The position numbers were made by a program, and so were the translations under genes. DNA of 60,740 nucleotides from positions 1 to 60,740 of the IMG/VR virus record IMGVR_UViG_3300044825_002458; one strand, given 5' to 3'. Below the pieces are notes generated by a model. That model was not told the origin of the DNA. It ran no database searches and saw nothing but the letters and a program-made list of their open reading frames with translations. This DNA is from a virus. Taxonomy: Duplodnaviria > Caudoviricetes. Below, piece by piece: positions 14,072 to 38,362 of this stretch (its first letter is position 1; each line of letters starts with the position of its first letter).

Positions 14072-14463
14072 CCGGCGTCCCTCAATAAGTTTCGGCCTTC
14101 GGGGTCTCGGTAGTCATCTAAATAGACTACCCTTCTGATACCTCGTTGAATTATACGCTGCGCGCACATTATGCACGGTGAGTGAGTTGAGATCATGGCC
14201 AAATTAGTCTCAACACTACGAGCCCTAAGAATTGCGTTCTCCTCTGCATGAAGACACATGCATGCTCCTTGAACACCAGTGCACCGATGGCGTGGGAGTC
14301 CCTTGGCCGGCCCGTTGTAGCCGATCGACACAACTTGTGTCAGATCGGCGGTAGTGATTATCGCACCCACCTTGGTTGGGCGATTGCAGGTCGATCGACT
14401 GCTCCACAATAGCGCAGTGACCATGTGGAGCTCAAGTCGAGTCGGACGTTCATCAGAAGACAT
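14008..14463 (-). CDS. dCMP deaminase (ComEB-like)
   Basis: RSTC.R..VGAII, GYNG, HAEENA, SPCIMC zinc motifs. Confidence 0.92.
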   Translation of the reverse strand: MSSDERPTRLELHMVTALLWSSRSTCNRPTKVGAIITTADLTQVVSIGYNGPAKGLPRHRCTGVQGACMCLHAEENAILRARSVETNLAMISTHSPCIMCAQRIIQRGIRRVVYLDDYRDPEGRNLLRDAGCEVLKHVNSPIFMVVSSLLT

Positions 14464-15250
14464 TGCGATCCTTCAAGTCTCGTCGATATGCATGTAGAGA
14501 GCCAGTGAAGTAGGTGAACGTGCCGATCTTCAGATCCAGCTCTGACGCGACGAGGTCTTGGAACATCATTGCCAACAAGATGTCGACCAGGAAGTGAGTC
14601 AACAGGTCGCACGACCTCATCGTGTAGATCAAGTCGACCGCCCCTTCTCGCGACAACAGTTGGTAGTACATCGAGCAAGGGATTCGGCCAACACCCCCCG
14701 CAAGGTTCTGGTCCTGAGACAGTTGAATGTCCAGCCCATCCCCTCCGTTTCGATACACCGGTGCGGATGGCACAGACAGTCCGTTGAAGATCGAGATGAT
14801 GCACTGGCGACTGTCGGCATTGTCCCTCAGTCGTCGCAAGACCGGCTTGAGTTGCGGTACGATACGTTCCGAGTAGGTGTAGTGGAACTTACCCTCTTCG
14901 TCACAGAAGTCATTCCACACCGACTGTCGGTGCTTCGACGAGTTCCCCGGATTGAGCGGGCGATTGCGATAGAAGCGATCATGGAACTCCTCGGTGATGT
15001 AGTTGTAGACCTCATTGACTTGTTCTTCACCGATCAAGTAGGCCACCAGCGAGGTAATCTGAAACTGAGTGACTATATCTCGGCTACCACTGATCTGGAA
15101 CCCATAGGCTCGAAGCTCCTTGGTAGTGAACTCTTCGGGGTCGGTAGCGACCTTGTTCTGCATGCTGGAGGGACGGGTAATGATACCCATCTCCCAGAGG
15201 TCTCGTTCGACTTCGCGGACCGCTTCCTTGATGTTCTGATAGATTCGCAT
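14453..15250 (-). CDS. Thymidylate synthase-family enzyme, probable dCMP (hydroxy)methylase
   Basis: YTYSER, SRQ, RIPCSMYYQ, MRSCDLLTHFLVD, GSLHAY; Asp at the ThyA N177 position. Confidence 0.85.
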   Translation of the reverse strand: MRIYQNIKEAVREVERDLWEMGIITRPSSMQNKVATDPEEFTTKELRAYGFQISGSRDIVTQFQITSLVAYLIGEEQVNEVYNYITEEFHDRFYRNRPLNPGNSSKHRQSVWNDFCDEEGKFHYTYSERIVPQLKPVLRRLRDNADSRQCIISIFNGLSVPSAPVYRNGGDGLDIQLSQDQNLAGGVGRIPCSMYYQLLSREGAVDLIYTMRSCDLLTHFLVDILLAMMFQDLVASELDLKIGTFTYFTGSLHAYRRDLKDRNVF

Positions 15251-16149
15251 CAGACTGCCTTTTCGAAGCCCAGAGCTTCGACTTTGAGGGTTGGTGGAAC
15301 GTTCTTCTTGCTGTGACCCATATGCTCCATCCAGCGGCGTTTGATCCGCTTGAATGGGCCGTACTTCTCGTGGCTGAGCATGTCGTTACCGTGCTCCTTG
15401 TATGCCTCAAGGATCTTCAAGTACCAGATGGTCATGTGGTACCAGGTGGGGCTCATCGAACTACGCTTCTTTTTGAGCCCCTCCCTACCGAGGTTCGCGA
15501 GCGACTCAAGCTCCTTGAACAGGTGTTTCTTCGAAAACACATACGGGAGGGTCTTGAAGCAGTGAAGCTGCTGAGATGTGATGAACCACCGGAATGCGAT
15601 GTCGCCCTCGTACCCGCTCTTCTTGGCGATCGCTGCCGCAATCCGATTAGCGATTGCAGCATCGAGCAGGGCCATGTAGCCCATGTATGTGGTCCTCGAG
15701 TAGATCGTGAGGCACGGTGAGTTCGGATCCTTCGGGGATCCCCGGAATGTTGCTCCCATGAGACATCCGCCCCATCGATGCTTCTTCGCGTATCGATCCG
15801 GGTCTCGGAACATCATGTTCGCAGTGGCACCTTGACGAGACTCGCCCGTCACGATTTCCACTGCCTGATCGATGAATCGACTCAGCGGCTCGAGGGGCAC
15901 ATACTCACGAATGAGGCGACTCCACCGCGACCGATTGAGCCACAACTCACGACCTACGTCGAGGTCGAACTTGTAGTCCGGAGTGTAGAGGCAAGTGTGA
16001 TAGAGGTGGGTCTCGATGTTGAGGACTGCGTCCGGCGCAGGGAGGTCGATATGGCCATCGACGGCATTGCTCATCAGCTCGGTCATATCCGAGCCCTCAA
16101 TGAACCACATGCCGTATCGATGGTCAAAGTTACTGTATGCGGTTCCCAT
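15250..16149 (-). CDS. Divergent second thymidylate-synthase-fold protein
   Basis: HRWGGCLMGATFR...LTIYSRTTYMGY..LD...RWFITSQQLH parallels TS PC..R..MRS.D..SLH; start at 16149 coupled to the upstream stop. Confidence 0.55.
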   Translation of the reverse strand: MGTAYSNFDHRYGMWFIEGSDMTELMSNAVDGHIDLPAPDAVLNIETHLYHTCLYTPDYKFDLDVGRELWLNRSRWSRLIREYVPLEPLSRFIDQAVEIVTGESRQGATANMMFRDPDRYAKKHRWGGCLMGATFRGSPKDPNSPCLTIYSRTTYMGYMALLDAAIANRIAAAIAKKSGYEGDIAFRWFITSQQLHCFKTLPYVFSKKHLFKELESLANLGREGLKKKRSSMSPTWYHMTIWYLKILEAYKEHGNDMLSHEKYGPFKRIKRRWMEHMGHSKKNVPPTLKVEALGFEKAV

Positions 16150-16898
16150 CAGTAGTTGCTCCGTTGGCGAAACTGATTGACCGCATGCTTCTTGTGGTAG
16201 AAGATGAAGACATCCTTCATGCTGAGCCCCATGAACGAGATGATTCCAAAGAGCTCGTACCAGGCCGCCAGGAACATGGATCGGAACATCGCCGCGTCTG
16301 TGGCCATCTGGGATTGCTTCCACGGCTTGTTCTTGAGTGTGTTGGCGGCAAGCCCCAGATACCGGATCGTATTCCACAGCATACGATCACATGCAACCGG
16401 ATCGGACGCCACCGCCTCGGGATTCAATGACCTACGGAGCGTCGAAGTCGCGGTGAGCCCGCTTCGTTCGAACGACTTAGTCGCCATCCGAGCTACGTCG
16501 GTCGGCGAAACCATCGCGATGATGGATGCCTCGGTCATGAAGTGAACGGCATCGATCAGTTCTTCTACGCAGTGGCGGAAGCTCGATGAAGTGCCTTCCT
16601 CCACTTCACCGTATGTCGGATAGAACTCGAACGCTTCGGCCAACTCCTCAGTGGCTCGCCAGAACATGTCCTTCAACCGAGCTTGGACTTTGGAATCATC
16701 GATCGAGTAAGCCGGCCACTGGATGTCGGACATTGAAATGGCGTATTCGCCAACCTTGGTTGGAATCACCGCCCCATTACGAGCCTCAATGGGCTCGTAC
16801 TTGTGGATCAAGGCCATCTGGCCTTCGAAGATCTTGACTACCATCTCGTAGTCGGTGACCGGGATGTTGAGAGGGTTTTCCACGTCGTCGATGTTCAT
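16149..16898 (-). CDS. All-alpha (MazG/dimeric dUTPase-like) dNTP pyrophosphatase, possibly dCTPase/dUTPase
   Basis: EELAEA...EELIDAVHF, LKNKPWK, YHKKHAVNQFRQ.SNY motifs. Confidence 0.8.
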   Translation of the reverse strand: MNIDDVENPLNIPVTDYEMVVKIFEGQMALIHKYEPIEARNGAVIPTKVGEYAISMSDIQWPAYSIDDSKVQARLKDMFWRATEELAEAFEFYPTYGEVEEGTSSSFRHCVEELIDAVHFMTEASIIAMVSPTDVARMATKSFERSGLTATSTLRRSLNPEAVASDPVACDRMLWNTIRYLGLAANTLKNKPWKQSQMATDAAMFRSMFLAAWYELFGIISFMGLSMKDVFIFYHKKHAVNQFRQRSNY

Positions 16899-17358: not shown

Positions 17359-20208
17359 TTACTTCTTCCTTTTTGCCTTGGTTCGATTCTGTTCGAATTC
17401 CCCGAGCCATTTGATGAACTCGGGATTCACACTATACTGAGATCCCCGGATGTGATTAACCGCGCGGTGACTGACCAGTGTGCTAAGCAGTCGGCGCGCG
17501 ATCATTGGATCACCGCTAGTCACGTTGGCCAGTGTATCGGGTGAAACCTCAGACACCGACCCAAGCAACATCAGCAGTGACGTATCGTTGGACAACAAGT
17601 CATCGAGCTCCCTAGCGAGCTTCTCTTTTTCCCGAATACCAGCTTGAGTCGAATATCGATCATAGCCGGCAGTAGGTTTCGAGTAGAAGGTGTCGATCAA
17701 CATGGAGGCGTATTTGACGTGCTCTTGTTTCACGATGAGCTTTTCGCCGCTCTTGTCGCATGAGTAGACGCGCGCAGCGATTGCTGCTGCAATCTTAGCG
17801 ATTTTGAATCGAATGTTAGCTCCCTGGATGAGAGGGATATCGCATGCTGGGTATTTCTCCATCAAGAAGATAGATTCTTCAGTGATGGTCTTTAGAGCTA
17901 CGTCGGTGAACTTGATCTGATCTTCAGTCCTAGACCATGCCCACAGTATGAGGTTCCTGAATGCCTCCACATCGAACTTATCGCTGTCGTCGGTGTTCGG
18001 TATGGTGAAGGTATTGATCTCGTCAGTGTTTACCTCATCATCGCCAATGAACAAAATGTAGTCGAATCGACGGATGTCTTCGACTGCTCCGATTAGTTCC
18101 TTGGCCGCTACTACACCATACGGGTAAGACGAGAGCAATCTACCAGTCCTTGTATTTGAGAGCCAGATCATTCGAGTCAATGCCTCGGCTCGATCATTAC
18201 GGACTTTTGTTGACTCCGCCACACCCTCGCTTCGGATTCGAGTCAACTTGCCGATGTCATTCACAGACATTGAGCTCATCTCGTCGATTAGCACCAGTCG
18301 ACCATTATTCATGGGTAACAAGCCCCACCGAATGATCCACTGCTTTCCGATGGATTCAACCGCTGCAACAAGACCGGCGTATGTCGACCCCTCACCCGAT
18401 GCTACTTGGCCTAGTCCATAGTAGTCAAGCAATCCCTCAGCGATTGACCCCTTACCCGTCGCTGAGTCACCGAGCACCAGGATATCGAGCATACCACGCT
18501 TGAGCCTCATCCCATTCAACGAGAAGCTCTTGACCGAATGGAATACAAGGTCAACGGATATATGGAGATCGGACCTACCTGGGATCTTGGTGATGTTCCT
18601 CCACTGCCAGTCAGCAATCTCCTTGATCTTTTCTTCTAGTGAGTTGTTACTTGAGACTGAGAACAGCGCTGATAGTCGTTTGCGATCGCGTGGGCTCAAC
18701 TCGAACGCTTCAACATCGGTCATGCTGATTGAAGCTCGAGGCGCAACGATTGATGCCAGCTGATTGTTCGGATCGGGTAGTACTCGACCCTCAAATGTGT
18801 ACTCTCGAGTCGGTAGTGTTCCTAAGTCGGCAGGGACTAGTGTGTTCGCAGTGACGTGGCGCCTATGACCAGATCCGATGGCGGGATTCAAGATGAGCTG
18901 AGTCAAGTACTGCCTAGATACAACCTCAACCTGACACCCGCACTCCGGCGTAGCGAACGAGAACCCAGCTTTGTTCTTCAGCTTGGTCATTATGGACGAT
19001 TTGCTCCCGCCCACATATTCCAAGAAGTCAAGCTCGTTCGGGGTAATGGTTACTTCTTTGAACTCATGATCCGTGTCTTGCATTGGGCACGTATCACAGG
19101 TCTTCTTACAGGACACACGTGCGGTATGTGGTACGACAAACGGAGTCATTGACTCGCCTGCAATACGAGCCTTGAACTTAACCTCTCGTTCGATCAAGGA
19201 GCTGTCGCTGACGACGATATCGAGCGGAGCCTCTCGAACATCTTGATCTACCACCGAGTCCGGGTTCTCGAGTTCAGGCTGAAGCTTGTCCATCTTAGCT
19301 TCCCAAGCATCGGCGGACCGCATCAGCTCGGACCCCTTCATCCAGTCCGATACGTCTTTGCCAGCATGCTTTGGAATCTTGATCCGGTATACCGCTTTAG
19401 CGATCGACCGAAGGGCCTTTAACGGTCGAGTCCAGAACCTATTACCGTCTTTGTCGTTGTCGTAGGCAATAACCACATCTAAGCCGCGGAAGTCTTCGTT
19501 GTACTCGTCGTTCCATGACTTGACTCCCGCGGTGCACGTTATCGCTGCAATACCAATGGATATTAGAGCAAGTGTGTCCCACTCACCTTCGCAGAGAACA
19601 ATGCGCCCATTACAAGTCTCCTTGGCCATAGCAAAGGAGGAAAATGGATACAGCTGTGTCGGTGACCCGAATGATCGACTTTCATTTGGGTCACGGTAGT
19701 TAATCATCTTCGGGCGACCCTTCGCCTTGGCGTCAACATCGTATTGCTTGGTGTTGATGACCTGTCCCCACCGGTCGTAGATGGGGAACACAATACGGCG
19801 GCCGTTGTATCCGAGGTTCATTCGGTCTCGGACTTCGTCGCTGACCATTCGACCTTCGATGTAGCTCTTCATCGGTTGACTCTGAGCTAACAAGCGCTTC
19901 CACTGCCTTACCTTCCTCGGTTCGATCGTCGGGTGGATGAACTCAGAGTAGATCTGGCTAGCCGCATCTTCGTGGCTTACCTTGTTGGCCTCGCTGTGGA
20001 ATTTGACGATCGATCTTCCCGCAGCGGAACAGCCATGGCAATAGAATGCACCTGTGTCCTTATTCAGATGCAAACTTGGAGTCTTCTCGCTATGGAAGAC
20101 GCACAGCACTCTAGCTTCGATTGCGTCTGGCCATCGGATCTCACCGAACACCCTCGAGTAGTATTCAGAGGGCGAAACTTTCTTACGGACGTAATCAGCG
20201 AGGCTCAT
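17359..20208 (-). CDS. Primase-helicase fusion: CHC2 zinc finger + TOPRIM + MCM-like AAA+ helicase
   Basis: CVFHSEKTPS..FYCHGC; LCEGEWD and AYDND; LDILVLGDSATGKGS, GLVAAV, LIDEMSSM, RRFD. Confidence 0.88.
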   Translation of the reverse strand: MSLADYVRKKVSPSEYYSRVFGEIRWPDAIEARVLCVFHSEKTPSLHLNKDTGAFYCHGCSAAGRSIVKFHSEANKVSHEDAASQIYSEFIHPTIEPRKVRQWKRLLAQSQPMKSYIEGRMVSDEVRDRMNLGYNGRRIVFPIYDRWGQVINTKQYDVDAKAKGRPKMINYRDPNESRSFGSPTQLYPFSSFAMAKETCNGRIVLCEGEWDTLALISIGIAAITCTAGVKSWNDEYNEDFRGLDVVIAYDNDKDGNRFWTRPLKALRSIAKAVYRIKIPKHAGKDVSDWMKGSELMRSADAWEAKMDKLQPELENPDSVVDQDVREAPLDIVVSDSSLIEREVKFKARIAGESMTPFVVPHTARVSCKKTCDTCPMQDTDHEFKEVTITPNELDFLEYVGGSKSSIMTKLKNKAGFSFATPECGCQVEVVSRQYLTQLILNPAIGSGHRRHVTANTLVPADLGTLPTREYTFEGRVLPDPNNQLASIVAPRASISMTDVEAFELSPRDRKRLSALFSVSSNNSLEEKIKEIADWQWRNITKIPGRSDLHISVDLVFHSVKSFSLNGMRLKRGMLDILVLGDSATGKGSIAEGLLDYYGLGQVASGEGSTYAGLVAAVESIGKQWIIRWGLLPMNNGRLVLIDEMSSMSVNDIGKLTRIRSEGVAESTKVRNDRAEALTRMIWLSNTRTGRLLSSYPYGVVAAKELIGAVEDIRRFDYILFIGDDEVNTDEINTFTIPNTDDSDKFDVEAFRNLILWAWSRTEDQIKFTDVALKTITEESIFLMEKYPACDIPLIQGANIRFKIAKIAAAIAARVYSCDKSGEKLIVKQEHVKYASMLIDTFYSKPTAGYDRYSTQAGIREKEKLARELDDLLSNDTSLLMLLGSVSEVSPDTLANVTSGDPMIARRLLSTLVSHRAVNHIRGSQYSVNPEFIKWLGEFEQNRTKAKRKK

Positions 20209-20242
20209 GCTTTCACGTTGACTCCGACCAGTTCAAAGTAAA

Positions 20243-20424
20243 GCACCGCTGCCCCCGACGTAATGGCTCATGGGATTCGATATACCCCCAGGTCAAGGGG
20301 GTCGAGTATGGACGTGGGCGCGGCTACCAGAGCGTTTTGGTCTTACCACATCCACACGACGAGATTGCTCGTCAGGCCATGAGCGCTCGACCGGTCAGAA
20401 TCGTTACGTCGAGAGCAGCGGTAC
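20243..20424 (-). ncRNA. Putative structured RNA (multibranch) between the SSB and primase-helicase genes
   Basis: 21-bp outer stem, 8-bp second stem, 12-bp inner stem and further hairpins; mismatches on + become G-U pairs on -. Confidence 0.65.
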
Positions 20425-20465
20425 AAGTATCAAAGAGCGATTGTCCCAGTCGGTGGCTAGAAGGG

Positions 20466-21542
<1,077 letters not shown>

Positions 21543-27963: not shown

Positions 27964-28022
27964 GTTATCACATTTTTTCGCCCTGTTCAGTTCGCTGTTC
28001 GAAAATGCGAGCGTTTTTCGCG

Positions 28023-28209
28023 TATCATCGTGCGCGCGCGGGAGTCCCCCTCACGAATACACACGAACGAACACGCCCCACAAACCCCCATACTATACCC
28101 CTATAATACTATACTATACCATAATATATCTATCTATCTATCTATCTACTACAAACAAACAAACAAACAAACAAACTAGAGCGCTTCTCAGCGCGCGCGC
28201 ACGATGATA
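28023..28209. repeat. 18-bp inverted repeat enclosing (TATC)5, (ACAA)6 and a 103-nt G-free tract; candidate origin/control region
   Basis: TATCATCGTGCGCGCGCG 28023-40 / CGCGCGCGCACGATGATA 28192-209; no G on + from 28076 to 28178. Confidence 0.75.
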
Positions 28210-28305
28210 TGAAAAATACGCTTGACTAATTGGCATTTGAGGGCGGCATTAGGATTTTGCTAAAATAGCGGCGTATTTCGAAGGGGAGTCAGATATACTA
28301 CGGCA

Positions 28306-29589: not shown

Positions 29590-30033
29590 ATGTCGACTCA
29601 AGAACCAGCCACCCGCGTCTGTCGCGAGTGTCGTCAAGAGCTGGCTATCGAGAACTTTTCCATAGTCAATTCGTCGCGTGCAAAGACGTATCGACGGAAT
29701 ACTTGCATAGAGTGCCGAAAGAAGTACGTTCGGCAAATCCGCAAGACGAACCGTTCGAAGTACACTAAGCGGCAAAAGTCTCGTCGTCAGTTCCGTAACC
29801 GGCTTTACCGAGACATGGTAAGGCTCTTGTTCGAGCTCAATCAGAAGGGGGTACTACCTCCCCACGGCATTGCGCTCCTTCACGATCTCAAGGCAAAGGT
29901 CACCTCAAGTGGAAATACCGAAGTCACCCTCCCAGCTCCTCAACCTGCTGAAGCAAATCCCGTCGTGTCGGAAATGCCCCGGCCTGAGCAACCCGGTATC
30001 GCCGTGGCTCCCCTCGACCAGCCCGCTGGCTGA
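29590..30033 (+). CDS. Zn-finger protein (CxxC..CxxC) with basic helix
   Basis: RVCRECRQE...F...CIECRK, like the N-terminus of HNH/EndoVII proteins but no nuclease domain. Confidence 0.6.
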   Translation: MSTQEPATRVCRECRQELAIENFSIVNSSRAKTYRRNTCIECRKKYVRQIRKTNRSKYTKRQKSRRQFRNRLYRDMVRLLFELNQKGVLPPHGIALLHDLKAKVTSSGNTEVTLPAPQPAEANPVVSEMPRPEQPGIAVAPLDQPAG

Positions 30034-30544
30034 GCTCATTCCCCAGCCCCCTTTTGGGAAGTTGGTCTTGATACTCCCAAGCCCTTCGCCAAAGGACCCC
30101 GAGTCAAGGCTTACCATATCGTCTACTCCTAGTGCCGTGGCGATCAGGAACGCCCTGCGATTTGCGGTGGACGGGATCGATCCGATGATGGCATACATGA
30201 CTTATTTGACCAAATGCCCGTCGAACATCCCCGACGATGGCACTGTTCAATGTGTCAGTACTTGCATGTCGGAGTACCTGCTGCACGAACTCAAAGCCCT
30301 CGACCCGGATACCATCATCGTATTCGGCGCCAAGGTTTTTGGTGCAGTGGCAAAGAGGGCGAACCCTCATATCTCATTTGTCAATGGCCGAATCATCATC
30401 TGCCCTGGTCCTCAGAAAGAAGTGACTATCTGTTCGATGTTCCACCCGAGGTACTACTCCTACGCTCATCGTAGCATCGCTGAGTTTGAAGTAGTGTTCA
30501 GTTCGCTTGCGCAACGACTCAGTGAAAGGAAGAAGTCAAAATGA
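29870..30544 (+). CDS. Family-4 uracil-DNA glycosylase-like protein (degenerate active site)
   Basis: CRKC, KC, C..YL..EL....P..IIVFG, FHP retained; GEAPG motif reads LPSPS; start uncertain. Confidence 0.7.
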   Translation: MRSFTISRQRSPQVEIPKSPSQLLNLLKQIPSCRKCPGLSNPVSPWLPSTSPLAELIPQPPFGKLVLILPSPSPKDPESRLTISSTPSAVAIRNALRFAVDGIDPMMAYMTYLTKCPSNIPDDGTVQCVSTCMSEYLLHELKALDPDTIIVFGAKVFGAVAKRANPHISFVNGRIIICPGPQKEVTICSMFHPRYYSYAHRSIAEFEVVFSSLAQRLSERKKSK

Positions 30545-32991: not shown

Positions 32992-33477
32992 TTACGCAGT
33001 GGAACGATTCGGCAGAATCAATTCCTCGGCAAAGGAGTAGAACGAAGTAGCGCCAATGACCATGTGATCCAGGAGTGGCACTCCTAGTAATTCGCCCGCC
33101 GCTCGCAAGCGATCGGTAATCAGGCGATCCTCCTTGGATGGTGATGGGTCACCCGATGGGTGATTGTGTGCCACGATGACACCGGCGGCGCAGCAGTGAA
33201 TGGCGGGACAGAACACCTCTCGAGGGTGAACCGTAACCGCTTCTGCCGTGCCAATGGACACGTTGTGGACCGCGATGACGTTGTTCCGTGTGTCCAGGTA
33301 GAAGGCAATGAAGTGTTCTCTCGGTTCTCGACCGATCATTGCGAACGCGATCGACTGCAGATCGTCGGCCCGTTTGACTCGCTGCACGGCGTAGCCTGTA
33401 TTGGGCTCGAGGGCCAGGGTCACACGAGGTGGGCTGCAATTCGGCCTGTGGACTTGGTCACGTTTCTTTGGAGGCAT
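32992..33477 (-). CDS. radC: RadC-like JAB domain protein
   Basis: REHF....LDTRN, VHPREVF, HNHPSGDPSPSKED, LLDHMVIG. Confidence 0.92.
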   Translation of the reverse strand: MPPKKRDQVHRPNCSPPRVTLALEPNTGYAVQRVKRADDLQSIAFAMIGREPREHFIAFYLDTRNNVIAVHNVSIGTAEAVTVHPREVFCPAIHCCAAGVIVAHNHPSGDPSPSKEDRLITDRLRAAGELLGVPLLDHMVIGATSFYSFAEELILPNRSTA

Positions 33478-33487
33478 GATTCTCTTT

Positions 33488-33733
33488 TCAGGGTTGATGG
33501 TTGTTACTTCGTGATGCAGAGGATTTGTCAGATCGCGGCTGCCGATGCACAAAGGTGAGGCATGAGTAGTGGACCGCATACTCTTTGCCGTCTTTGTCCA
33601 TCCGCACCATCAGATATCCGTGTTTGGTCTTGCGGGCATTTGTGACAATGCCTTGGCCTTTGGGCTCACCCCAGTACCTTGCCTTTACTTCCACGATGTC
33701 GTGGAATTCGAACTTAGGTATGGGGGGTTTCAT
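33488..33733 (-). CDS. Hypothetical SH3-like protein
   Basis: Small beta-rich ORF in the chain. Confidence 0.5.
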   Translation of the reverse strand: MKPPIPKFEFHDIVEVKARYWGEPKGQGIVTNARKTKHGYLMVRMDKDGKEYAVHYSCLTFVHRQPRSDKSSASRSNNHQP

Positions 33734-34454: not shown

Positions 34455-34706
34455 TTACTCGAGGTCTCCTTCGAACCTGTACTGATGGCATTTCACGCAG
34501 CGAGGGCCTACGTCTTCGAACATCCGCCATTTGTGGTCACAGATACCAGCCCAGGAACTAGACCCTGAGAGTGTGTTATACAGGTCGAGCCGGGCCTGGC
34601 AGAAGAGTGTATACAACGCCGGGCTGAGGGGATGGCATGCGGCTTTCATGAAGCTTCGCCATTCGTCGAACGATTGCGCATCGCTCAGTTTTCTTTGCTC
34701 GTCCAT
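34455..34706 (-). CDS. Hypothetical protein with C-terminal Zn ribbon
   Basis: CDHKW......CVKC. Confidence 0.55.
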   Translation of the reverse strand: MDEQRKLSDAQSFDEWRSFMKAACHPLSPALYTLFCQARLDLYNTLSGSSSWAGICDHKWRMFEDVGPRCVKCHQYRFEGDLE

Positions 34707-34808
34707 AGGTTGTTACTTGCGTAGGATTGTTTCGTGGGAATGCCTGTCCGTGTGCGGTTTCATTATGCAGTGGTGATCGGCTGCAAACAAGGCGAGGGCA
34801 CCGGGGAA

Positions 34809-34856
34809 GTTACGACTTCGTAACAGACTTTTTGGCATGTGTTACGATGGCGTAAC
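34809..34856. promoter_or_regulatory. Pair of GTTACG-N4-CGTAAC palindromes
   Basis: 34809-24 and 34841-56; 34806-36 is nearly identical to 31363-93. Confidence 0.75.
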
Positions 34857-34878
34857 ATACGTTGGTACGGATGCCGTG

Positions 34879-35118
34879 TCAGTCGGAGAGTGCCGCATGG
34901 AACAAGGTAATGCGTGCATCGGCGGGCAATGATTGCCTCACTGCCGTCAATACGTCGAACATATCGCGGCAATTATGTACCCTGCCCGACCGTTCGCATT
35001 CTACGACATCGAGACCATCGACGGAGTAATTGACGGAGTAATCGAATGTGTTGACCGTGTGTTCTGGGCCGATGAAAAGGTCGACGCGTTTGCCTCGATT
35101 TACTTTGAGAAGTTCCAT
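34879..35118 (-). CDS. Hypothetical protein
   Basis: AAGTAACAAC leader. Confidence 0.5.
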   Translation of the reverse strand: MELLKVNRGKRVDLFIGPEHTVNTFDYSVNYSVDGLDVVECERSGRVHNCRDMFDVLTAVRQSLPADARITLFHAALSD

Positions 35119-35250
35119 TGCCTGGTTCTCTTTTTGCTTGAAGGAGTTGTTACTTGTGAACGTATGCCCATCGTTTTTCTGCCGTCCCCCGTCGCGTATG
35201 TGTTGAGGGGGTTTGAAATAGCAGATTTAGCGGATGGATAAAAAATGTCC

Positions 35251-35320
35251 GTTACGAGATCGTAACGCCATTCTGTCATGCGTTACGGGGTCGTAACACG
35301 GGCCGTTACGAGGTCGTAAC
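35251..35320. promoter_or_regulatory. Three GTTACG-N4-CGTAAC palindromes
   Basis: 35251-66, 35282-97, 35305-20. Confidence 0.75.
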
Positions 35321-35344
35321 GCCATTTTGGCATAATGCGTCGCG

Positions 35345-35377
35345 AAAAATGCCCCCGTGATTTTCGCACGGGGGCAT
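35345..35377 (-). terminator. Rho-independent terminator
   Basis: - strand ATGCCCCCGTG-loop-CACGGGGGCAT-TTTT directly after 35383..35697. Confidence 0.8.
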
Positions 35378-35382
35378 ATCGT

Positions 35383-35697
35383 TCACGCGATCGCGTCGAC
35401 CTTCTTCGCCTTCTTGGCCTTCTTCTTGCTGACCTTCGCGACGACCTTCTCGTCCTTCGCGTCCTTCGCGTCCTTCGCGTCCTTCGCCCCGTCGATCGCC
35501 CTCAACCCGCCGACGTGTCCCAACCGACGCAACTTCGCGCGAATGTTCTTCTGCGCACCGCGATCGCCCTTCGCGTCGCGCAACTCGACAATCGCCTGCG
35601 CGATCGCCTCGTTCCGCTGCTCCGCCGTCATCTCGACCTTCTGCTCGACCGTTTCCTTGTCGTTCTTCGTGCTCATTGCATCTACCTTTGCGCGCAT
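35383..35697 (-). CDS. Small basic protein with KNIRAKLRRLGHVGG module and DAK repeats
   Basis: Shared motif, Lys-rich tail, own terminator. Confidence 0.75.
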   Translation of the reverse strand: MRAKVDAMSTKNDKETVEQKVEMTAEQRNEAIAQAIVELRDAKGDRGAQKNIRAKLRRLGHVGGLRAIDGAKDAKDAKDAKDEKVVAKVSKKKAKKAKKVDAIA

Positions 35698-35769
35698 CCC
35701 TGCGCGACTTTTGTTTGTCCCGAATTATTGCGCACGACGTGTGCGCCCTTGTTCGAAACGAATTCTGTG

Positions 35770-36093
35770 TTACACGTCGTCGTTTGCCATCAGCGCAATC
35801 GCGACGTGCATACGTGTCGTTTGCACGGTTGCGCGCGCAACGTATGCGTTTGCGTCGTATTCATCGCATTCGATCGCGTGCAACGTTTGCGTCTGTACGT
35901 TGCGCAGCACGACGTTGCATTGTGTGCGTGCCACGTATGCAAACAACGTCGCGCAATATATTACGCGGATGTTCGGCACGTGCAACGCGTCAATTGCGTC
36001 GTCGTCGTCGTCGATCATGCCCGCGATGCGCAACGTCGTTACGTCGTTTTCATCGCATTCGATCGTGTGCGCGTGTTCGTGTTCGTGTGTCAT
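35770..36093 (-). CDS. Possible hypothetical protein encoded in the dinucleotide-biased tract
   Basis: Open frame with internal HxIECDE and AYVAR duplications; the biased composition also makes long ORFs more likely by chance. Confidence 0.35.
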   Translation of the reverse strand: MTHEHEHAHTIECDENDVTTLRIAGMIDDDDDAIDALHVPNIRVIYCATLFAYVARTQCNVVLRNVQTQTLHAIECDEYDANAYVARATVQTTRMHVAIALMANDDV

Positions 36094-36629
36094 TGTGTTG
36101 TGTTGTGTTGTGTGCGTCGCGTCGTGCGACGAACGACACAATGCAAACGTCGTGCGACGCGTCGAAAAATGCGCGAAAATATTTCGATTGACGTAACTCG
36201 TTTAAATATAACGAGTTGTGTCGTTGCGTGCGATCATGCACAAAATCGATGCATCGCGTTATCGTAGACGAGTCGTAACACAATACGTGTGTGTCGCAAC
36301 GTGTGTGTTTGCAACGCATTGCACTCGTGTTATCGATACGATATCGTAACAGTTTCACAAGCGGGAATTTCGTCGAGCGAGATTGGTCGAAAACGCACGG
36401 GAAAATAATGCGGGAAATGTTGATGACGAGACGGTTCGGCGGCACGGAATTTGTGCGCGTATACGGCACGGCGATTGCGTCGTGGTCGTGGCATGGTCAT
36501 TGCGATGCATGATTTTTTCGATTTTGGAGTTGACATGCGTCCCCCCCACCCCCCTATTTTTCGCGATTGTAACGCCCGACCCCTACCCCCACGCGGTAGC
36601 GAGTTTGGGGCCCCTAACCAACCTGCATA

Positions 36630-36863
36630 ATGAGCAACCATCGTTACTCTACTCGTGAAGCTGCTTTCATCGATGAGGACGGCTTCCGGAATGCACCGTG
36701 TGAGTGTTCCCGTAAGTCGTGCCGATTCGCATGGGTTGCGCACGGTGAGACTCCCTCTGGATCACATGCCCCGTTCACCAAGATCGAGTGTCCTAAGTGT
36801 CACCGTCGAACGGGTGAAGAAGCGGAGCATCGTTATGCACCTACTCGGCGACTAAAGGGCTAG
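36630..36863 (+). CDS. Small Zn-ribbon protein
   Basis: CECSRKSC...CPKC, immediately upstream of TerL. Confidence 0.5.
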   Translation: MSNHRYSTREAAFIDEDGFRNAPCECSRKSCRFAWVAHGETPSGSHAPFTKIECPKCHRRTGEEAEHRYAPTRRLKG

Positions 36864-36871
36864 CGTCCCAG

Positions 36872-38362
36872 ATGACACCCACTGCTCGTACCGCCCGCTC
36901 CCGCTCCCGTCGCATCTCTTCTCCAATAACGCAGGGTCCAGCGCCGCTCTACTCTTCGTCCCTGTCTTCTGCGGAGTACCTGGAACAGACCCTTAGCGAG
37001 GAATTGACGGAGAAAGGCCGTCGCCTGTGGACTCCGTTTCGTTATCACCCCGTCCAAAGTGCGCTCTGGTCTTCCAACGCGCGTTTTCGTATGGTGCCGG
37101 CGGGACGACGTTCGGGAAAGACTGCAATCGCAAAGCGCTTTGGAGTGTTGAGCGCTGTTACTTGCACACTCCCCGATGGTTGGTTTGTGTTCGCAGCGCC
37201 GGTTCAGAAACAAGCCGTCCAGATCTATTGGCGAGATCTGAAGGCGATGATCCCCAAGTCGTGGCAACTTCGTAGGCCGAGCGAATCGGATCGAACCATC
37301 TTCTTGATTAATGGTGCAGAGATCCAGGTGATTGGACTGGATGTGCCGGAACGACTCGAGGGTCGGCCGTTGGATGGGATCGTGATTGATGAGTATGGGA
37401 ACTGCCGAGAGGAGGCGTGGGACGCGAATATCCGACCTGCCTTGTCCACGCCAGATCGTCCGCCGGGGTGGGCGTGGCTGATCGGAGTGCCGGAAGGTCG
37501 TAATCACTACTACGATCTCTGGCAGGATGTGATATCGACGCCCGACGATGAGGAATGGGCGGGGTTCACGTGGTCTTCACGAGACATCATGGACCCCAAG
37601 GAGGTTGAGTCGCTGCGGAAGAAGCTCGACCCGAAGACGTTCTCCCAGGAAGTGGATGCAACGTTTGAGTCGTTCGATGGGGCTGTCTACTATGGCTTTG
37701 AGCGAAAGGTGCACGCCGGGACTAGGCTCCGTTACCGCCCCACCGAGCCCTTATACATCACCTTTGACTTCAACGTGGAACCTGGCACTGCGAATATCGT
37801 GCAAGAGGGTCCACCGACTCAAGGCTCGCTCCCGCAATCTGTCTTCCAGAAGTTCTCGGCCAGCGTTACACAGGTGATTGACGAGATCCATGTCCCAGTG
37901 GGATCTTCGACCCCGAGAGTGTGCCACGATATCTTGGCTAAGTATCGAAACCACAAGGGACCTGTGGTGATGATTGGCGATCCATCTGGTGGTAACCGAG
38001 AAACTAGCCAGACGGCGGGTACTGATATTGACTTGATCAAGCAGATATTCCGCCCGGTGTTCGGCGAACGCTTGCGTAATGCGTTCTCCTTGAGCAAGGT
38101 GCCGGTAAAAGCGAGGATTAACTCCGTCAATGCTCGTATCCAGTCGACCGATGAGAAGTACCACTTCCAGATCGACCCGATGACCTGTCCCCACACAGTC
38201 AAAGACTTCGAAGGTGTGATGGTGTTGAAGGGGACGGCGGGTATACCAGATAAGCGAAAGTGCGAGAAGGAGGGTATTGGTCACCACACGGACGGCATTG
38301 GCTATTACATTCACCGAAAGTTCCCCCTCCGTCGCCCAACAGCCCTATTGCAATCGGCGTAA
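36872..38362 (+). CDS. terL: Terminase large subunit
   Basis: AGRRSGKT Walker A, IVIDEYG Walker B, DFNVEP, GDPSG, HHTDGIGY nuclease motifs. Confidence 0.93.
   Translation: MTPTARTARSRSRRISSPITQGPAPLYSSSLSSAEYLEQTLSEELTEKGRRLWTPFRYHPVQSALWSSNARFRMVPAGRRSGKTAIAKRFGVLSAVTCTLPDGWFVFAAPVQKQAVQIYWRDLKAMIPKSWQLRRPSESDRTIFLINGAEIQVIGLDVPERLEGRPLDGIVIDEYGNCREEAWDANIRPALSTPDRPPGWAWLIGVPEGRNHYYDLWQDVISTPDDEEWAGFTWSSRDIMDPKEVESLRKKLDPKTFSQEVDATFESFDGAVYYGFERKVHAGTRLRYRPTEPLYITFDFNVEPGTANIVQEGPPTQGSLPQSVFQKFSASVTQVIDEIHVPVGSSTPRVCHDILAKYRNHKGPVVMIGDPSGGNRETSQTAGTDIDLIKQIFRPVFGERLRNAFSLSKVPVKARINSVNARIQSTDEKYHFQIDPMTCPHTVKDFEGVMVLKGTAGIPDKRKCEKEGIGHHTDGIGYYIHRKFPLRRPTALLQSA

What the first reader, a model, noticed from the sequence alone, without database searches (positions are those of the whole stretch)
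35700..36360. ~600-bp tract almost devoid of CC, CT, GG and AG (no 5'-CY on either strand)
Seen: by eye I count only about 17 CC/CT/GG/AG dinucleotides in 35761-36360, against roughly 150 expected for unbiased sequence. There are none from about 36023 to 36196, while CG, TG/CA, GC and AC/GT dominate. These four dinucleotides together mean C-followed-by-pyrimidine on both strands. The tract sits at the divergence between the early - strand genes and terL, where a genome end or packaging site is plausible. Inference: it avoids a context-specific base modification (possibly of the modified cytosine made by the 14-17 kb cluster) or host restriction sites, so that first-injected or packaging DNA stays unmodified or uncut. 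The purine-pyrimidine alternation would also be Z-DNA-prone.
Basis: partly seen in the sequence, partly recalled or inferred. Interest (0 to 1): 0.8.

Follow-up and report, generated by a model that had tools for sequence, protein, structure and literature searches.

The report
Strand-specific C-pyrimidine-free early phage module
At the point where a phage's early and late genes diverge, about 1.1 kb of DNA, including two small genes, has been rewritten so that on each outward-reading strand a C is almost never followed by C or T, which looks like evasion of an unknown enzyme that reads very short sequence contexts.

Summary
There are 17 CC/CT/GG/AG in 35761-36360 against about 149 expected, with a 176-bp run holding none (longest elsewhere 33 bp). 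The tract is not one symmetric, non-coding spacer. It is the overlap of two strand-specific purges of C-pyrimidine (CY) steps. The minus-strand purge runs 36351 to 35416. The plus-strand purge runs 35770 to 36541 and stops at the start codon of the first rightward ORF before terL. The minus-strand purge covers two genes. One is a 107-aa acidic ORF with strong codon periodicity, whose 69-77%-identical relative has no Gly, Pro, Trp, Ser or Lys. The other is a Lys/Ala-rich gene with 1 CY where 17.5-18.5 are expected from its own protein and the genome's codon usage. Z-DNA, general restriction-site avoidance, structured RNA, hypermutation and assembly artefact are not supported. The best reading (about 0.4) is dinucleotide-level target avoidance, in the first-expressed or leading module, against an activity that reads one strand (RNA or single-stranded or nicked DNA). 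The agent is unidentified. Physical ends, transcripts and base modification could not be tested. No relative's DNA was obtainable, and none of 4 wider relatives has the tract.

The parts
35416..36351 (-). Minus-strand CY-free stretch (no CC/CT on the - strand, which equals no GG/AG on the + strand). It contains 9-10 CY in 937 nt.
   Evidence: + strand RG gaps of 376 nt (35416-35792) and 239 nt (35975-36214). Equal-length windows on both strands average 116 +/- 18.
35770..36541 (+). Plus-strand CY-free stretch. It contains 8 CY in 792 nt (counted over 35750-36541). It ends at the start codon of orf31.
   Evidence: CY gaps of 217 (36324-36541), 176, 127 and 106 nt. Equal-length windows average 98 +/- 16.
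35383..35697 (-). gene104: a Lys/Ala/Asp-rich small protein with conserved core IRAKLRRLGHVGGLR. The likely start is ATG 35676, preceded by AAGGTAG. Its sense strand is purged of CY, while its antisense strand is CY-rich.
   Evidence: 1 CY observed against 18.5 +/- 3.1 (full ORF) or 17.5 +/- 3.1 (from ATG 35676) for the same protein with genome codon usage; the minimum in 20,000 simulations was 6 and 5. Ala is 18 of 19 GCG/GCA, Leu 4 of 4 TTG, Thr 3 of 3 ACG. Homologues: (7 proteins at E <= 1e-3).
35677..35769 (.). Spacer between orf107 and gene104. It has 0 CY on the - strand (11 expected) and a normal count on the + strand (13 against 12).
35770..36093 (-). orf107 (P0002): an acidic, His-rich 107-aa protein that lies wholly inside the doubly depleted block. 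No Shine-Dalgarno is possible upstream, which is CA-rich (ACACAACACAACACAACACA-ATG).
   Evidence: three-base periodicity chi2 43, p 1e-7; called in the record, plus homologue P0003 (69% identity). P0003 has 0 G/P/W/S/K; observed 5 CY and 5 RG against 28.6 +/- 4.2 and 16.2 +/- 3.0 expected. One search shows the upstream sequence.
36094..36351 (.). Region upstream of orf107, depleted on both strands (2 and 3 against 33 and 31 expected). It holds an AT-rich patch and a perfect 8-bp hairpin, AACTCGTT-N7-AACGAGTT, at 36195-36217.
   Evidence: (I12).
36352..36535 (+). Right arm. The + strand has 0 CY (23 expected), and the - strand is normal (22 against 22). It ends with GGAG-N5-ATG.
36536..36631 (+). 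orf31: a 31-aa Pro-rich ORF (MRPPHPP...) that starts the CY-rich sequence (29 CY against 12 expected). Its stop overlaps the ATG of the 77-aa Zn-ribbon ORF (36630-36863), which precedes terL (36872-38362).
35846..36118 (.). Internal duplication with 188-189-nt spacing (63 codons, in frame with orf107): 35846-35930 against 36035-36118. It includes the 15-mer CATCGCATTCGATCG twice.
   Evidence: D2, D4, D6, D13.
35837..36317 (.). GCAACG(T) words: GCAACGT occurs 6 times (0.8 +/- 0.9 expected from a first-order Markov model of the tract) and GCAACG 9 times, in both orientations. They may be protein-binding sites.

Best explanation
The tract is the overlap (block B, 35770-36351) of two strand-specific purges of the step 'C followed by C or T'. 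On the - strand the purge covers a 258-nt upstream region, orf107, a spacer and gene104, ending about 33 nt before the gene104 stop. On the + strand it covers block B plus 184 nt and stops at the start codon of the first rightward ORF. In each case the purged strand is the outward-reading strand. That strand is either the sense strand of the flanking genes, or equivalently the strand whose 5' end would lie at the boundary of block B. I read this as selected target-site avoidance at dinucleotide resolution. On this reading, the leading or first-expressed module of the phage has been recoded, down to synonymous codons and amino-acid alphabet, so that one strand at a time offers no CY. Equivalently, its complement, the template strand, offers no purine-G. 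The avoided activity would act on single strands: early RNA, the displaced or template DNA strand, or a strand nicked or resected from an end. Shown: the depletion, its strand asymmetry and sharp boundaries, the coding status of orf107 and gene104, the synonymous-codon bias, and the restricted alphabet in a diverged relative. Inferred: that selection is against an enzyme's target, that the module is expressed or enters first, and whether the level is RNA or DNA. The agent is not identified.
For: (1) The size and uniqueness of the depletion. The only other long single-strand gaps in the record are a poly-Asp/Glu run and microsatellites. (2) Strand specificity with sharp edges at gene boundaries. 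Observed/expected CY on the - strand: gene104 1/35, spacer 0/11, orf107 5/39, upstream 3/31, then 22/22 in the right arm and 44/58 in the next leftward ORFs. On the + strand: 63/38, 13/12, 5/41, 2/33, 0/23, then 29/12 in orf31. (3) The constraint acts on synonymous sites. With the protein held fixed and genome codon usage applied, gene104 should have 17.5-18.5 CY and has 1, and orf107 should have 28.6 and has 5. No simulation out of 20,000 came close for CY. (4) orf107 is a real gene. It shows periodicity (p 1e-7), it is called in the record, and it has a homologue at 69% (BLASTP) or 77% (alignment) identity. That homologue contains no Gly, Pro or Trp, the three residues whose codons all carry a forbidden dinucleotide. 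The window's only Gly and Pro are Tyr and Thr there. P(no G/P/W in 119 aa) is 8e-9 at this phage's composition. (5) The module is promoter-proximal at the only divergence point of the genome. (6) Precedents. The location of defence motifs in the leading, first-injected region decides sensitivity to Type I R-M (PMC12455610, abstract read). T5 first-step-transfer DNA has been proposed to lack the target sites of the phage's own host-DNA-degrading nuclease (10.1101/866236, passages read).
Against: No enzyme with CY (or RG) specificity was found. DarT1 has no consensus motif (PMC11543638, passages). By my recall, CmdT targets GA, Rho's primary sites bind YC, not CY, and known mRNA interferases use other motifs. 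TC is not depleted here. The purge of the + strand over 766 nt upstream of the late genes needs either a long antisense or leader transcript, or a genome end. Neither was shown, and no sigma-70-like promoter was found (0 sites; best 8 of 12 matches inside the tract). Homologues of gene104 in other phages carry several prolines (P0001, P0004, P0005, P0007), so their genes cannot be CY-free throughout. The tract was absent from 0 of 50 fetched loci of distant relatives. It was also absent from 4 of 4 whole records sharing the TS-like gene (two of them only 84% complete) and from 35.7 of 55.7 kb of the nearest deposited phage. Support from a relative is indirect, resting on protein alphabet only, because no relative's DNA could be obtained.
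Confidence: 0.4

Rival explanations
1. One reading: the phage makes a modified cytosine whose further modification depends on the 3' neighbour (CY). On this view the tract is kept free of that context, so that this DNA stays unmodified. The mirror image is that every C in it lies in the one context that is fully modified. Either would serve early transcription, packaging recognition or protection of entering DNA.
For: The TS-like enzyme has the catalytic Cys, and Asp at the position of E. coli ThyA Asn177 (alignment). By established knowledge (recalled) this is the cytosine-specifying state, as in T4 dCMP hydroxymethylase. It scores far below the ThyA equivalog cut-offs (39 against 327 bits). 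A dCMP deaminase and DUF1599 lie next to it, and the 375-aa neighbour has TS-family look-alikes in the Atlas (a lead only). Neighbour-dependent glucosylation of hydroxymethylcytosine in pyrimidine clusters of T-even phages is classical knowledge; I recall it, and it did not turn up. In run X3 the contig over 34558-36564 has word depth 34.6 against 7-16 for its neighbours, which could reflect easier sequencing of less-modified DNA.
Against: TS-like enzymes act on free nucleotides and give no sequence context. No methyltransferase, glycosyltransferase or other DNA-level modifier was recognised among about 45 proteins scanned, although many ORFs remain unknown. The high-depth block in X3 starts 840 nt left of the purge, and contig depth is a weak measure. 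A duplex-level need does not explain why gene104 is purged on one strand only while its other strand carries 63 CY against 38 expected.
Confidence: 0.15
2. Block B (35770-36351) is a direct terminal repeat of a linear genome, and the purge serves end biology rather than defence. The strand with its 5' end at each terminus (or its complement) would lack the recognition sites of a primase or nuclease. Long single-stranded tails could then persist and anneal to form concatemers or circles.
For: The geometry fits exactly. Each purged strand starts at one edge of block B and extends 184 nt (+) or about 350 nt (-) beyond the other edge. The phage encodes a DnaG-type Zn-ribbon/Toprim primase fused to an MCM-like helicase, a family A DNA polymerase and a PD-(D/E)XK nuclease. 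By recall, known bacterial and phage primase trinucleotides such as CTG, CTA, CCC and GCT all contain CY. terL lies next to the tract. The depth of the X3 contig is raised.
Against: No ends were mapped, because only contigs were available. The raised depth is 3-4-fold rather than 2-fold, and its block (34558-36564) does not match block B. The record's own ends lie elsewhere, and contigs run through the tract. It is unclear why conserved proteins would be recoded for this purpose.
Confidence: 0.12
3. A duplex cis-acting element, such as a replication origin, packaging site, operator array or Z-DNA/cruciform-prone region, whose sequence vocabulary happens to exclude these four dinucleotides.
For: GCAACGT occurs 6 times (0.8 expected), and there are exact repeats CGTCGTGCGACG x2 and a 15-mer x2. 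There is an AT-rich patch and an 8-bp hairpin at 36195-36217. Purine-pyrimidine alternation is raised. The tract folds at -0.405 kcal/mol/nt against -0.344 +/- 0.037 for random segments.
Against: Repeats cover only a small part of 1.1 kb. More than half of the purged sequence is coding, and the bias sits in synonymous sites. The arms are strand-specific. The longest alternating run is 14 nt. Folding is no better than dinucleotide-preserving shuffles: z is +0.6, with 17 of 20 shuffles folding at least as well, and -1.6, with 9 of 200.
Confidence: 0.08
4. Avoidance of CRISPR PAMs (recalled: CC for type I-F, AAG/AGG/GAG, i.e. CTT/CCT/CTC, for type I-E, NGG/NAG for Cas9) in the DNA that enters first and is most sampled for spacers.
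For: All four missing dinucleotides are the cores of those PAMs (recall). None of the 17 residual CY steps is followed by T (p about 0.0075), so CTT and CCT are wholly absent.
Against: A PAM on either strand allows targeting, so single-strand arms give no protection. ATG, a functional I-E PAM by recall, is frequent. The host and its CRISPR type are unknown.
Confidence: 0.05
5. The tract is a mutational or compositional product rather than a selected one. It would result from context-specific cytosine deamination (CY to TY), or from a module recently imported from a genome of different composition.
For: The phage encodes a deaminase-fold protein. The 2-kb block has higher depth than its flanks in X3, as expected for a module shared among co-occurring phages.
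Against: The expected products are not enriched. TC 1.06, TT 0.95 and GA 0.77 are at or below genome values, and only AA (1.46) is raised. Reading frames are intact and conserved at 69-77% identity with the same restricted alphabet. Purging only the sense strand of gene104, with synonymous choices against genome usage, requires selection.
Confidence: 0.05

Closest known systems
[quoted passage not shown]
   Same: It is a local purge, not genome-wide, placed at the promoter-proximal early module next to the packaging genes. The region carries small, fast-evolving early genes.
   Different: Those cases concern specific 4-8-bp duplex motifs. Here the unit is a dinucleotide class, the purge is strand-specific, and it reshapes codon choice and amino-acid alphabet. 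It has not been shown that this DNA enters first.
Dinucleotide avoidance in eukaryotic viruses (CpG against ZAP, UpA against RNase L; recalled, no paper read)
   Same: Selection acts at dinucleotide resolution on one strand (the RNA), and it is visible in synonymous sites.
   Different: Those biases are genome-wide and moderate. Here the purge is nearly absolute and confined to about 1.1 kb. CpG is in fact 2.4-fold enriched. No sensor or nuclease for CY is known.
Transcripts lacking mRNA-interferase sites (ACA-less or GCU-less genes for MazF and MqsR; recalled)
   Same: The short target is absent from the sense strand specifically, within coding sequence.
   Different: Those involve trinucleotides and single genes. 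No CY-specific RNase is known, and here a non-coding stretch and the opposite strand are purged as well.
Strand-biased site orientation that evades Type III restriction (T7 and EcoP15I; recalled)
   Same: A strand-asymmetric sequence feature serves as a defence escape.
   Different: In that case a 6-bp site is kept but in a single orientation across the genome. Here a dinucleotide class is removed locally.
Frequent-cutting nickases with 2-3-nt sites of chlorella viruses (Nt.CviPII CCD, Nt.CviQII RAG; recalled)
   Same: They show that strand-specific DNA enzymes with sites as short as the missing dinucleotides exist.
   Different: A strand free of CC and CT still carries RAG. These enzymes come from eukaryotic algal viruses, and no homologue was looked for or found here.

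Membership tests
Restriction-site (palindrome) avoidance | Depletion of defined 4-8-bp duplex motifs, usually palindromes | tested here: not met
   ACGT 16, CGCG 13, TGCA 11, GCGC 9, TCGA 8 and GATC 4 in 611 nt, at or above Markov expectation for most. The 6-bp sites GAATTC, TGCGCA and CGATCG are visible.
Restriction-site (palindrome) avoidance | Symmetry: both strands equally affected | tested here: not met
   gene104 has 1 CY on the - strand and 63 on the + strand. The right arm has 0 on the + strand and 22 on the - strand.
Z-DNA-forming tract | Long uninterrupted purine-pyrimidine alternation, with all homopurine and homopyrimidine steps disfavoured | tested here: not met
   the longest run is 14 nt. 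AA 1.46, TT 0.95, TC 1.06 and GA 0.77 are not depleted.
Direct terminal repeat / leading end of a linear phage genome | Physical ends at the repeat borders | not testable with these tools
   all runs are held as contigs only. No places were reported where molecules begin or end.
Direct terminal repeat / leading end of a linear phage genome | About two-fold read depth over the repeat | tested here: inconclusive
   the X3 contig 34558-36564 has depth 34.6 against 7-16 for its neighbours. The ratio and borders do not match block B, and contig depth is a weak measure.
Direct terminal repeat / leading end of a linear phage genome | Early genes next to the end, reading inward; packaging genes at the other side | tested here: met
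   orf107 and gene104 read leftward from the tract, and terL lies 330 nt to its right.
Avoidance of a context-specific phage DNA modification | The phage encodes a DNA-level modifying enzyme with sequence context | tested here: inconclusive
   only nucleotide-level enzymes (TS-like, dCMP deaminase) and DUF1599 were recognised. Many ORFs have no family.
Avoidance of a context-specific phage DNA modification | Modification detected in CY/RG context elsewhere in the genome | not testable with these tools
   No raw signal or mass-spectrometry data are available.
Target avoidance against a single-strand-acting nuclease or modifier (the mRNA-interferase or ZAP type of logic) | Depletion confined to one strand and visible at synonymous sites | tested here: met
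Target avoidance against a single-strand-acting nuclease or modifier (the mRNA-interferase or ZAP type of logic) | An identified enzyme with the matching specificity | tested here: not met
   Searches and the passages gave none. DarT1 has no consensus motif. From recall, CmdT targets GA and Rho binds YC, and neither fits.
Rho-utilisation-site avoidance in untranslated leaders | Absence of YC dimers (CC and UC) and a low C/G ratio | tested here: not met
   TC occurs 47 times in 600 nt on the + strand (odds ratio 1.06). The C/G ratio is below 1 on both purged strands (177/228 and 238/276), which does fit.
Structured non-coding RNA | Folding energy beyond dinucleotide-preserving shuffles, or an Rfam match | tested here: not met
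   (z +0.6 and -1.6). One search gave only a chance hit (E 0.62, 22.5 bits against a gathering score of 114).

The most novel reading that the evidence does not exclude
A phage has recoded its leading module, non-coding DNA and two protein genes alike, into a 'stealth alphabet' in which C is never followed by a pyrimidine on the exposed strand. One protein has even given up Gly, Pro and Trp. The purpose would be to make the module invisible to a still-unknown host (or phage-borne) enzyme that attacks single-stranded RNA or DNA at C-pyrimidine (or purine-G) steps. This would be the bacterial counterpart of CpG/ZAP and UpA/RNase L avoidance, and its sequence footprint would point to a new class of defence with dinucleotide specificity.
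Probability: 0.3. Interest if true: 0.85.

Novelty: new variant of a known kind. Interest (0 to 1): 0.72.

Why it matters
If the purge is a footprint of selection, it gives the exact specificity (CY on one strand, RG on the other) of an enzyme nobody has described. It also gives a ready test object: two small genes and 440 nt of spacer that can be recoded strand by strand. It shows as well that motif-avoidance scans limited to palindromes or to whole genomes miss local, strand-specific signals at dinucleotide level. It offers a simple rule, long single-strand CY-free runs, for searching other phage genomes. A protein family forced to do without Gly, Pro and Trp is a curiosity for protein evolution in its own right.

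Tried and rejected
Relatives' DNA.
- blastn of the tract against deposited phages found no match.
- terL-based scans of IMG/VR and of metagenomes returned only relatives at or below 48% identity, with no tract.
- The nearest deposited phage, MW202621, has a longest all-four gap of 35 bp in the 35.7 kb fetched.
- Scans with alignments of gene104 and orf107 picked low-complexity or N-terminal peptides and found nothing.
- Degenerate back-translated patterns of the conserved cores found nothing in IMG/VR or in genome contigs.
- tblastn of both proteins against deposited phages found no match.
- 36 loci and 4 whole records reached through the TS-like gene have no tract. The low-CY start of G002 is an ordinary AT-rich spacer with microsatellites.

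Reads. Only Logan contigs were on offer, so neither ends nor depth profiles could be read. Parts without cover in X1, X4 and X5 say nothing.

RNA. Rfam gave nothing, and folding is not above shuffles.

Promoters. The consensus scan found 0 sites. A relaxed scan gave only 8 of 12 matches inside the tract.

Protein function. PHROGs and Pfam gave nothing for orf107, gene104 or orf77. The AlphaFold model of orf107 has pLDDT 39.5 and the Atlas model pLDDT 0.36, so neither was used and no fold search was run.

Other long single-strand gaps in the record are trivial. 20670-20808 is a poly-Asp/Glu run, and 28043-28178 is (TTTG)n/(ATAG)n microsatellites.

Ideas considered and dropped.
- UV-dimer avoidance: the template strand of gene104 is pyrimidine-dimer-rich.
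- Rho avoidance: Rho binds YC, not CY.
- DarT-type ssDNA ADP-ribosylation: DarT1 has no motif, and DarT2's motif, by recall, is T-based.
- C-to-T hypermutation: its products are not enriched.

Supplementary files of papers were not consulted.
Full report
1. THE OBSERVATION

The window is a whole viral record of 60,740 bases. It is classed as linear with no end repeats, and CheckV estimates it about 97% complete. In 35761-36360 there are exactly 17 CC/CT/GG/AG dinucleotides. The record-wide share of these four is 24.8%, so about 149 are expected.

All the lowest 300-nt windows of the record lie here (0.017-0.05 against 0.248 +/- 0.033). No such dinucleotide occurs between 36021 and 36197 (176 bp), while the longest gap outside this locus is 33 bp. 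Odds ratios in the tract are AG 0.17, CC 0.21, CT 0.13, GG 0.06 and CG 2.41. AA (1.46), TT (0.95), TC (1.06) and GA (0.77) are not depleted.

The same sequence stands in contigs of two further runs, one of them from a different study. It is therefore not an artefact of this assembly.

Counting CC/CT ('CY') and GG/AG ('RG') separately shows the real structure.

- The + strand has almost no RG from 35416 to 36351, with gaps of 376 and 239 nt. So the - strand is CY-free there: 9-10 CY in 937 nt against 116 +/- 18 for windows of equal length.
- The + strand is CY-free from about 35770 to 36541, with gaps of 217, 176, 127 and 106 nt: 8 in 792 nt against 98 +/- 16.

The reported tract is the overlap. 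The edges are sharp and sit at gene borders.

Observed/expected CY by segment:

Segment | - strand | + strand
next leftward ORFs | 44/58 | not used
gene104 | 1/35 | 63/38
spacer 35677-35769 | 0/11 | 13/12
orf107 | 5/39 | 5/41
upstream region 36094-36351 | 3/31 | 2/33
right arm 36352-36535 | 22/22 | 0/23
orf31 | not used | 29/12

This gives three blocks. Block A (35383-35769) is purged on the - strand only. Block B (35770-36351) is purged on both strands. Block C (36352-36535) is purged on the + strand only.

The + strand purge ends at a GGAG-N5-ATG (36536). That ATG opens a 31-aa Pro-rich ORF whose stop overlaps the start of a 77-aa Zn-ribbon ORF, followed by terL.

The only other long single-strand gaps in the record are a poly-Asp/Glu run and microsatellites.

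3. THE TRACT IS LARGELY CODING, AND THE BIAS SITS IN CODON CHOICE AND IN THE PROTEIN ALPHABET

The ORF map shows + strand genes from 36872 through the record's ends to 7614, and - strand genes from 35697 down to 7707. The tract therefore lies at the only divergence point.

gene104 (35383-35697, -)
- It is a Lys/Ala/Asp-rich protein.
- It has a small family of homologues sharing the core IRAKLRRLGHVGGLR.
- With its protein held fixed and the codon usage of 14 long genes of this phage applied, 18.5 +/- 3.1 CY are expected on its sense strand. One is seen, and the minimum of 20,000 simulations was 6. From the second ATG the figures are 17.5 +/- 3.1 expected and 1 observed.
- Ala uses GCG/GCA in 18 of 19 codons (49% in the genome), Leu uses TTG in 4 of 4 (20%), and Thr uses ACG in 3 of 3 (27%).

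orf107 (35770-36093, -)
- It lies wholly inside the doubly purged block.
- It has strong three-base periodicity (chi2 43, p 1e-7), with the same position pattern as gene104 and terL.
- It is a called gene of the record.
- It has a homologue, P0003, at 69% (BLASTP) or 77% (alignment) identity on another contig.
- Its CY and RG counts are 5 and 5, against 28.6 +/- 4.2 and 16.2 +/- 3.0 expected.
- P0003 (119 aa) has no Gly, Pro or Trp, the three residues whose codons all contain a forbidden dinucleotide. It also has no Ser and no Lys. The single Gly and single Pro of the window's protein are Tyr and Thr in P0003.
- At this phage's composition, the chance of no G/P/W in 119 residues is 8e-9.
- No Shine-Dalgarno sequence is possible upstream of orf107. 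The 20 nt before its ATG are a CA repeat.

Neither protein has a Pfam or PHROG family. The structure model of orf107 is unusable, with pLDDT 39.5.

4. WHAT IT IS NOT

- Z-DNA. Alternation is raised, but the longest perfect run is 14 nt, and only steps with C on the 5' side of a pyrimidine are missing.
- General restriction-site avoidance. The tract is full of 4-bp palindromes, and several 6-bp sites are present.
- Structured RNA. There is no Rfam match, and folding is no better than dinucleotide-preserving shuffles (z +0.6 and -1.6). The restricted vocabulary does, however, make it fold more tightly than average genome segments (-0.405 against -0.344 +/- 0.037 kcal/mol/nt).
- C-to-T hypermutation. 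The products TC, TT and GA are not enriched, and the frames are intact and conserved.
- Rho-site avoidance. By recall, Rho binds YC, and TC is at normal frequency.

There are some repeated words: GCAACGT 6 times against 0.8 expected, a 12-mer and a 15-mer twice each, and an in-frame 189-nt duplication. There is also one perfect 8-bp hairpin. These may be binding sites, but they cover little of the 1.1 kb.

5. HOW IT MOST LIKELY WORKS

A constraint that removes one dinucleotide class from one strand, passes through coding sequence at synonymous sites, and stops at gene borders is most simply read as selection against a very short target read on single strands.

The purged strand is in each case the outward-reading one. 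Two geometries fit the blocks equally well.

(i) Two face-to-face transcripts. One starts near 36351 and runs leftward. The other starts near 35770 and runs rightward. Their first 770-940 nt would be CY-free RNA.

(ii) Block B is a direct terminal repeat. The strand with its 5' end at each terminus would then be CY-free, and its complement RG-free, for the same distance.

I could not separate them. No raw reads or RNA data were available, and no convincing sigma-70 promoter was found.

I commit, at about 0.4, to target avoidance in the leading or first-expressed module against an activity acting on RNA or on single-stranded or nicked DNA. There are two precedents for local purges of this kind. 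Type I R-M motif location in the first-injected region decides sensitivity (PMC12455610, abstract). T5 first-step-transfer DNA has been proposed to lack the sites of the phage's own host-DNA nuclease (10.1101/866236, passages).

The weak point is that no enzyme with CY or RG specificity is known to me or was found in the searches. DarT1 shows no consensus motif (PMC11543638, passages). For CmdTAC (PMC11618068) I saw only the search listing; its GA specificity is recalled.

A small hint on the target comes from the residual steps. None of the 17 residual CY steps on the purged strands is followed by T (p about 0.0075).

The cluster at 14-17 kb does contain a TS-like protein with the catalytic Cys, and Asp at the position of E. 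coli ThyA Asn177. From established knowledge of this family (recalled), that is the cytosine-specifying state. The protein scores far below the ThyA cut-offs. It lies beside a dCMP deaminase and a DUF1599 domain, and next to a 375-aa protein whose Atlas look-alikes include TS-family clusters (a lead only).

A 5-substituted cytosine is therefore plausible. However, such enzymes act on the nucleotide pool, and no DNA-level enzyme with a sequence context was recognised. The idea stays alive at about 0.15, also in its mirror form, in which every C of the tract sits in the one context that is fully modified.

The raised word depth of the X3 contig 34558-36564 (34.6 against 7-16) could reflect any of three things: terminal redundancy, a module shared among co-occurring phages, or easier sequencing of less-modified DNA. 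Its left border does not match the purge, and contig depth is weak evidence.

7. RELATIVES

The phage is nearly an orphan. terL relatives are at or below 48% identity, and primase relatives are about 30%.

The tract was found in none of the following:
- 50 fetched loci;
- 4 whole records that share the TS-like gene at 45-48% identity (two are 84% complete);
- the 35.7 of 55.7 kb fetched from MW202621.

gene104 homologues elsewhere contain prolines, so the purge of that gene is specific to this lineage. The only support from a relative is the alphabet of P0003, and its DNA could not be fetched.

8. VERDICT

The feature is a strand-specific, dinucleotide-level recoding of an early module that includes two conserved genes. 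I know of no described equivalent, and the four searches named in section 5 found none. These were limited full-text searches, and supplements were not seen. I file it as a new variant of motif avoidance, with the agent unknown.

Noticed in passing
window 34558-36564 (run X3): One 2007-nt Logan contig covers this block at word depth 34.6, while neighbouring contigs of the same phage have 7-16. Its right edge (36564) lies 23 nt past the end of the + strand CY-free stretch. It could reflect terminal redundancy, a module shared among co-occurring phages, or a library bias.
   Followed up: partly
window 14453-15250 (-) and 15250-16377 (-): The TS-like protein has Asp at the position of E. coli ThyA Asn177 and scores 39 bits against a 327-bit ThyA cut-off. 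The adjacent 375-aa protein (phrog_13667, no Pfam family) has thymidylate-synthase-family look-alikes in the ESM Atlas. Together they may be a two-enzyme pathway for a 5-substituted cytosine.
   Followed up: partly
proteins P0006, P0008, P0009: The gene104 core motif (IRAKLRRLGH.GGL) also occurs as an internal stretch of large proteins. Two of them combine a phage Mu F-like head domain with ADP-ribosyltransferase domains, so they could be injected proteins. The third combines a protein kinase with an FGE-sulfatase domain. The motif may be a portable nucleic-acid- or capsid-binding module.
   Followed up: no
window 36536-36631 (+): A 31-aa Pro-rich ORF (MRPPHPP...) begins with the run CCCCCCCACCCCCC right after a strong GGAG site, and its stop overlaps the next start codon (TAATG). 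The homopolymer run could be prone to slippage. Its role before the packaging genes is unknown, and no terS was recognised (only a 77-aa Zn-ribbon ORF).
   Followed up: no
window 28020-28210; G002 (L054) 300-420: This intergenic region holds (GC)n, (TTTG)n, (ATAG)n and GTATA-type microsatellites next to an ORF whose N-terminus resembles the ORF beside terS in G002. G002 has a similar microsatellite patch ((GC)n, (TACT)n, (AATA)n) upstream of that gene, terS and terL. The module is conserved but differently placed.
   Followed up: partly
window 20670-20808 (-): A run of about 45 consecutive Asp/Glu codons (GAC/GAG/GAA) lies on the - strand. The 375-aa + strand ORF 20121-21248 that overlaps it is probably spurious.
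   Followed up: no
window 35700-36189 (+): All three + strand reading frames are free of stop codons for about 490 nt. This is probably a by-product of orf107's lack of TCA and TTA codons and of Ser, but an overlapping antisense ORF was not excluded.
   Followed up: partly
window 29870-30544 (+), 32992-33579 (-): A UDG-superfamily ORF lies on the + strand inside the - strand early region, and a RadC-like JAB-domain protein lies among the early genes.
   Followed up: no
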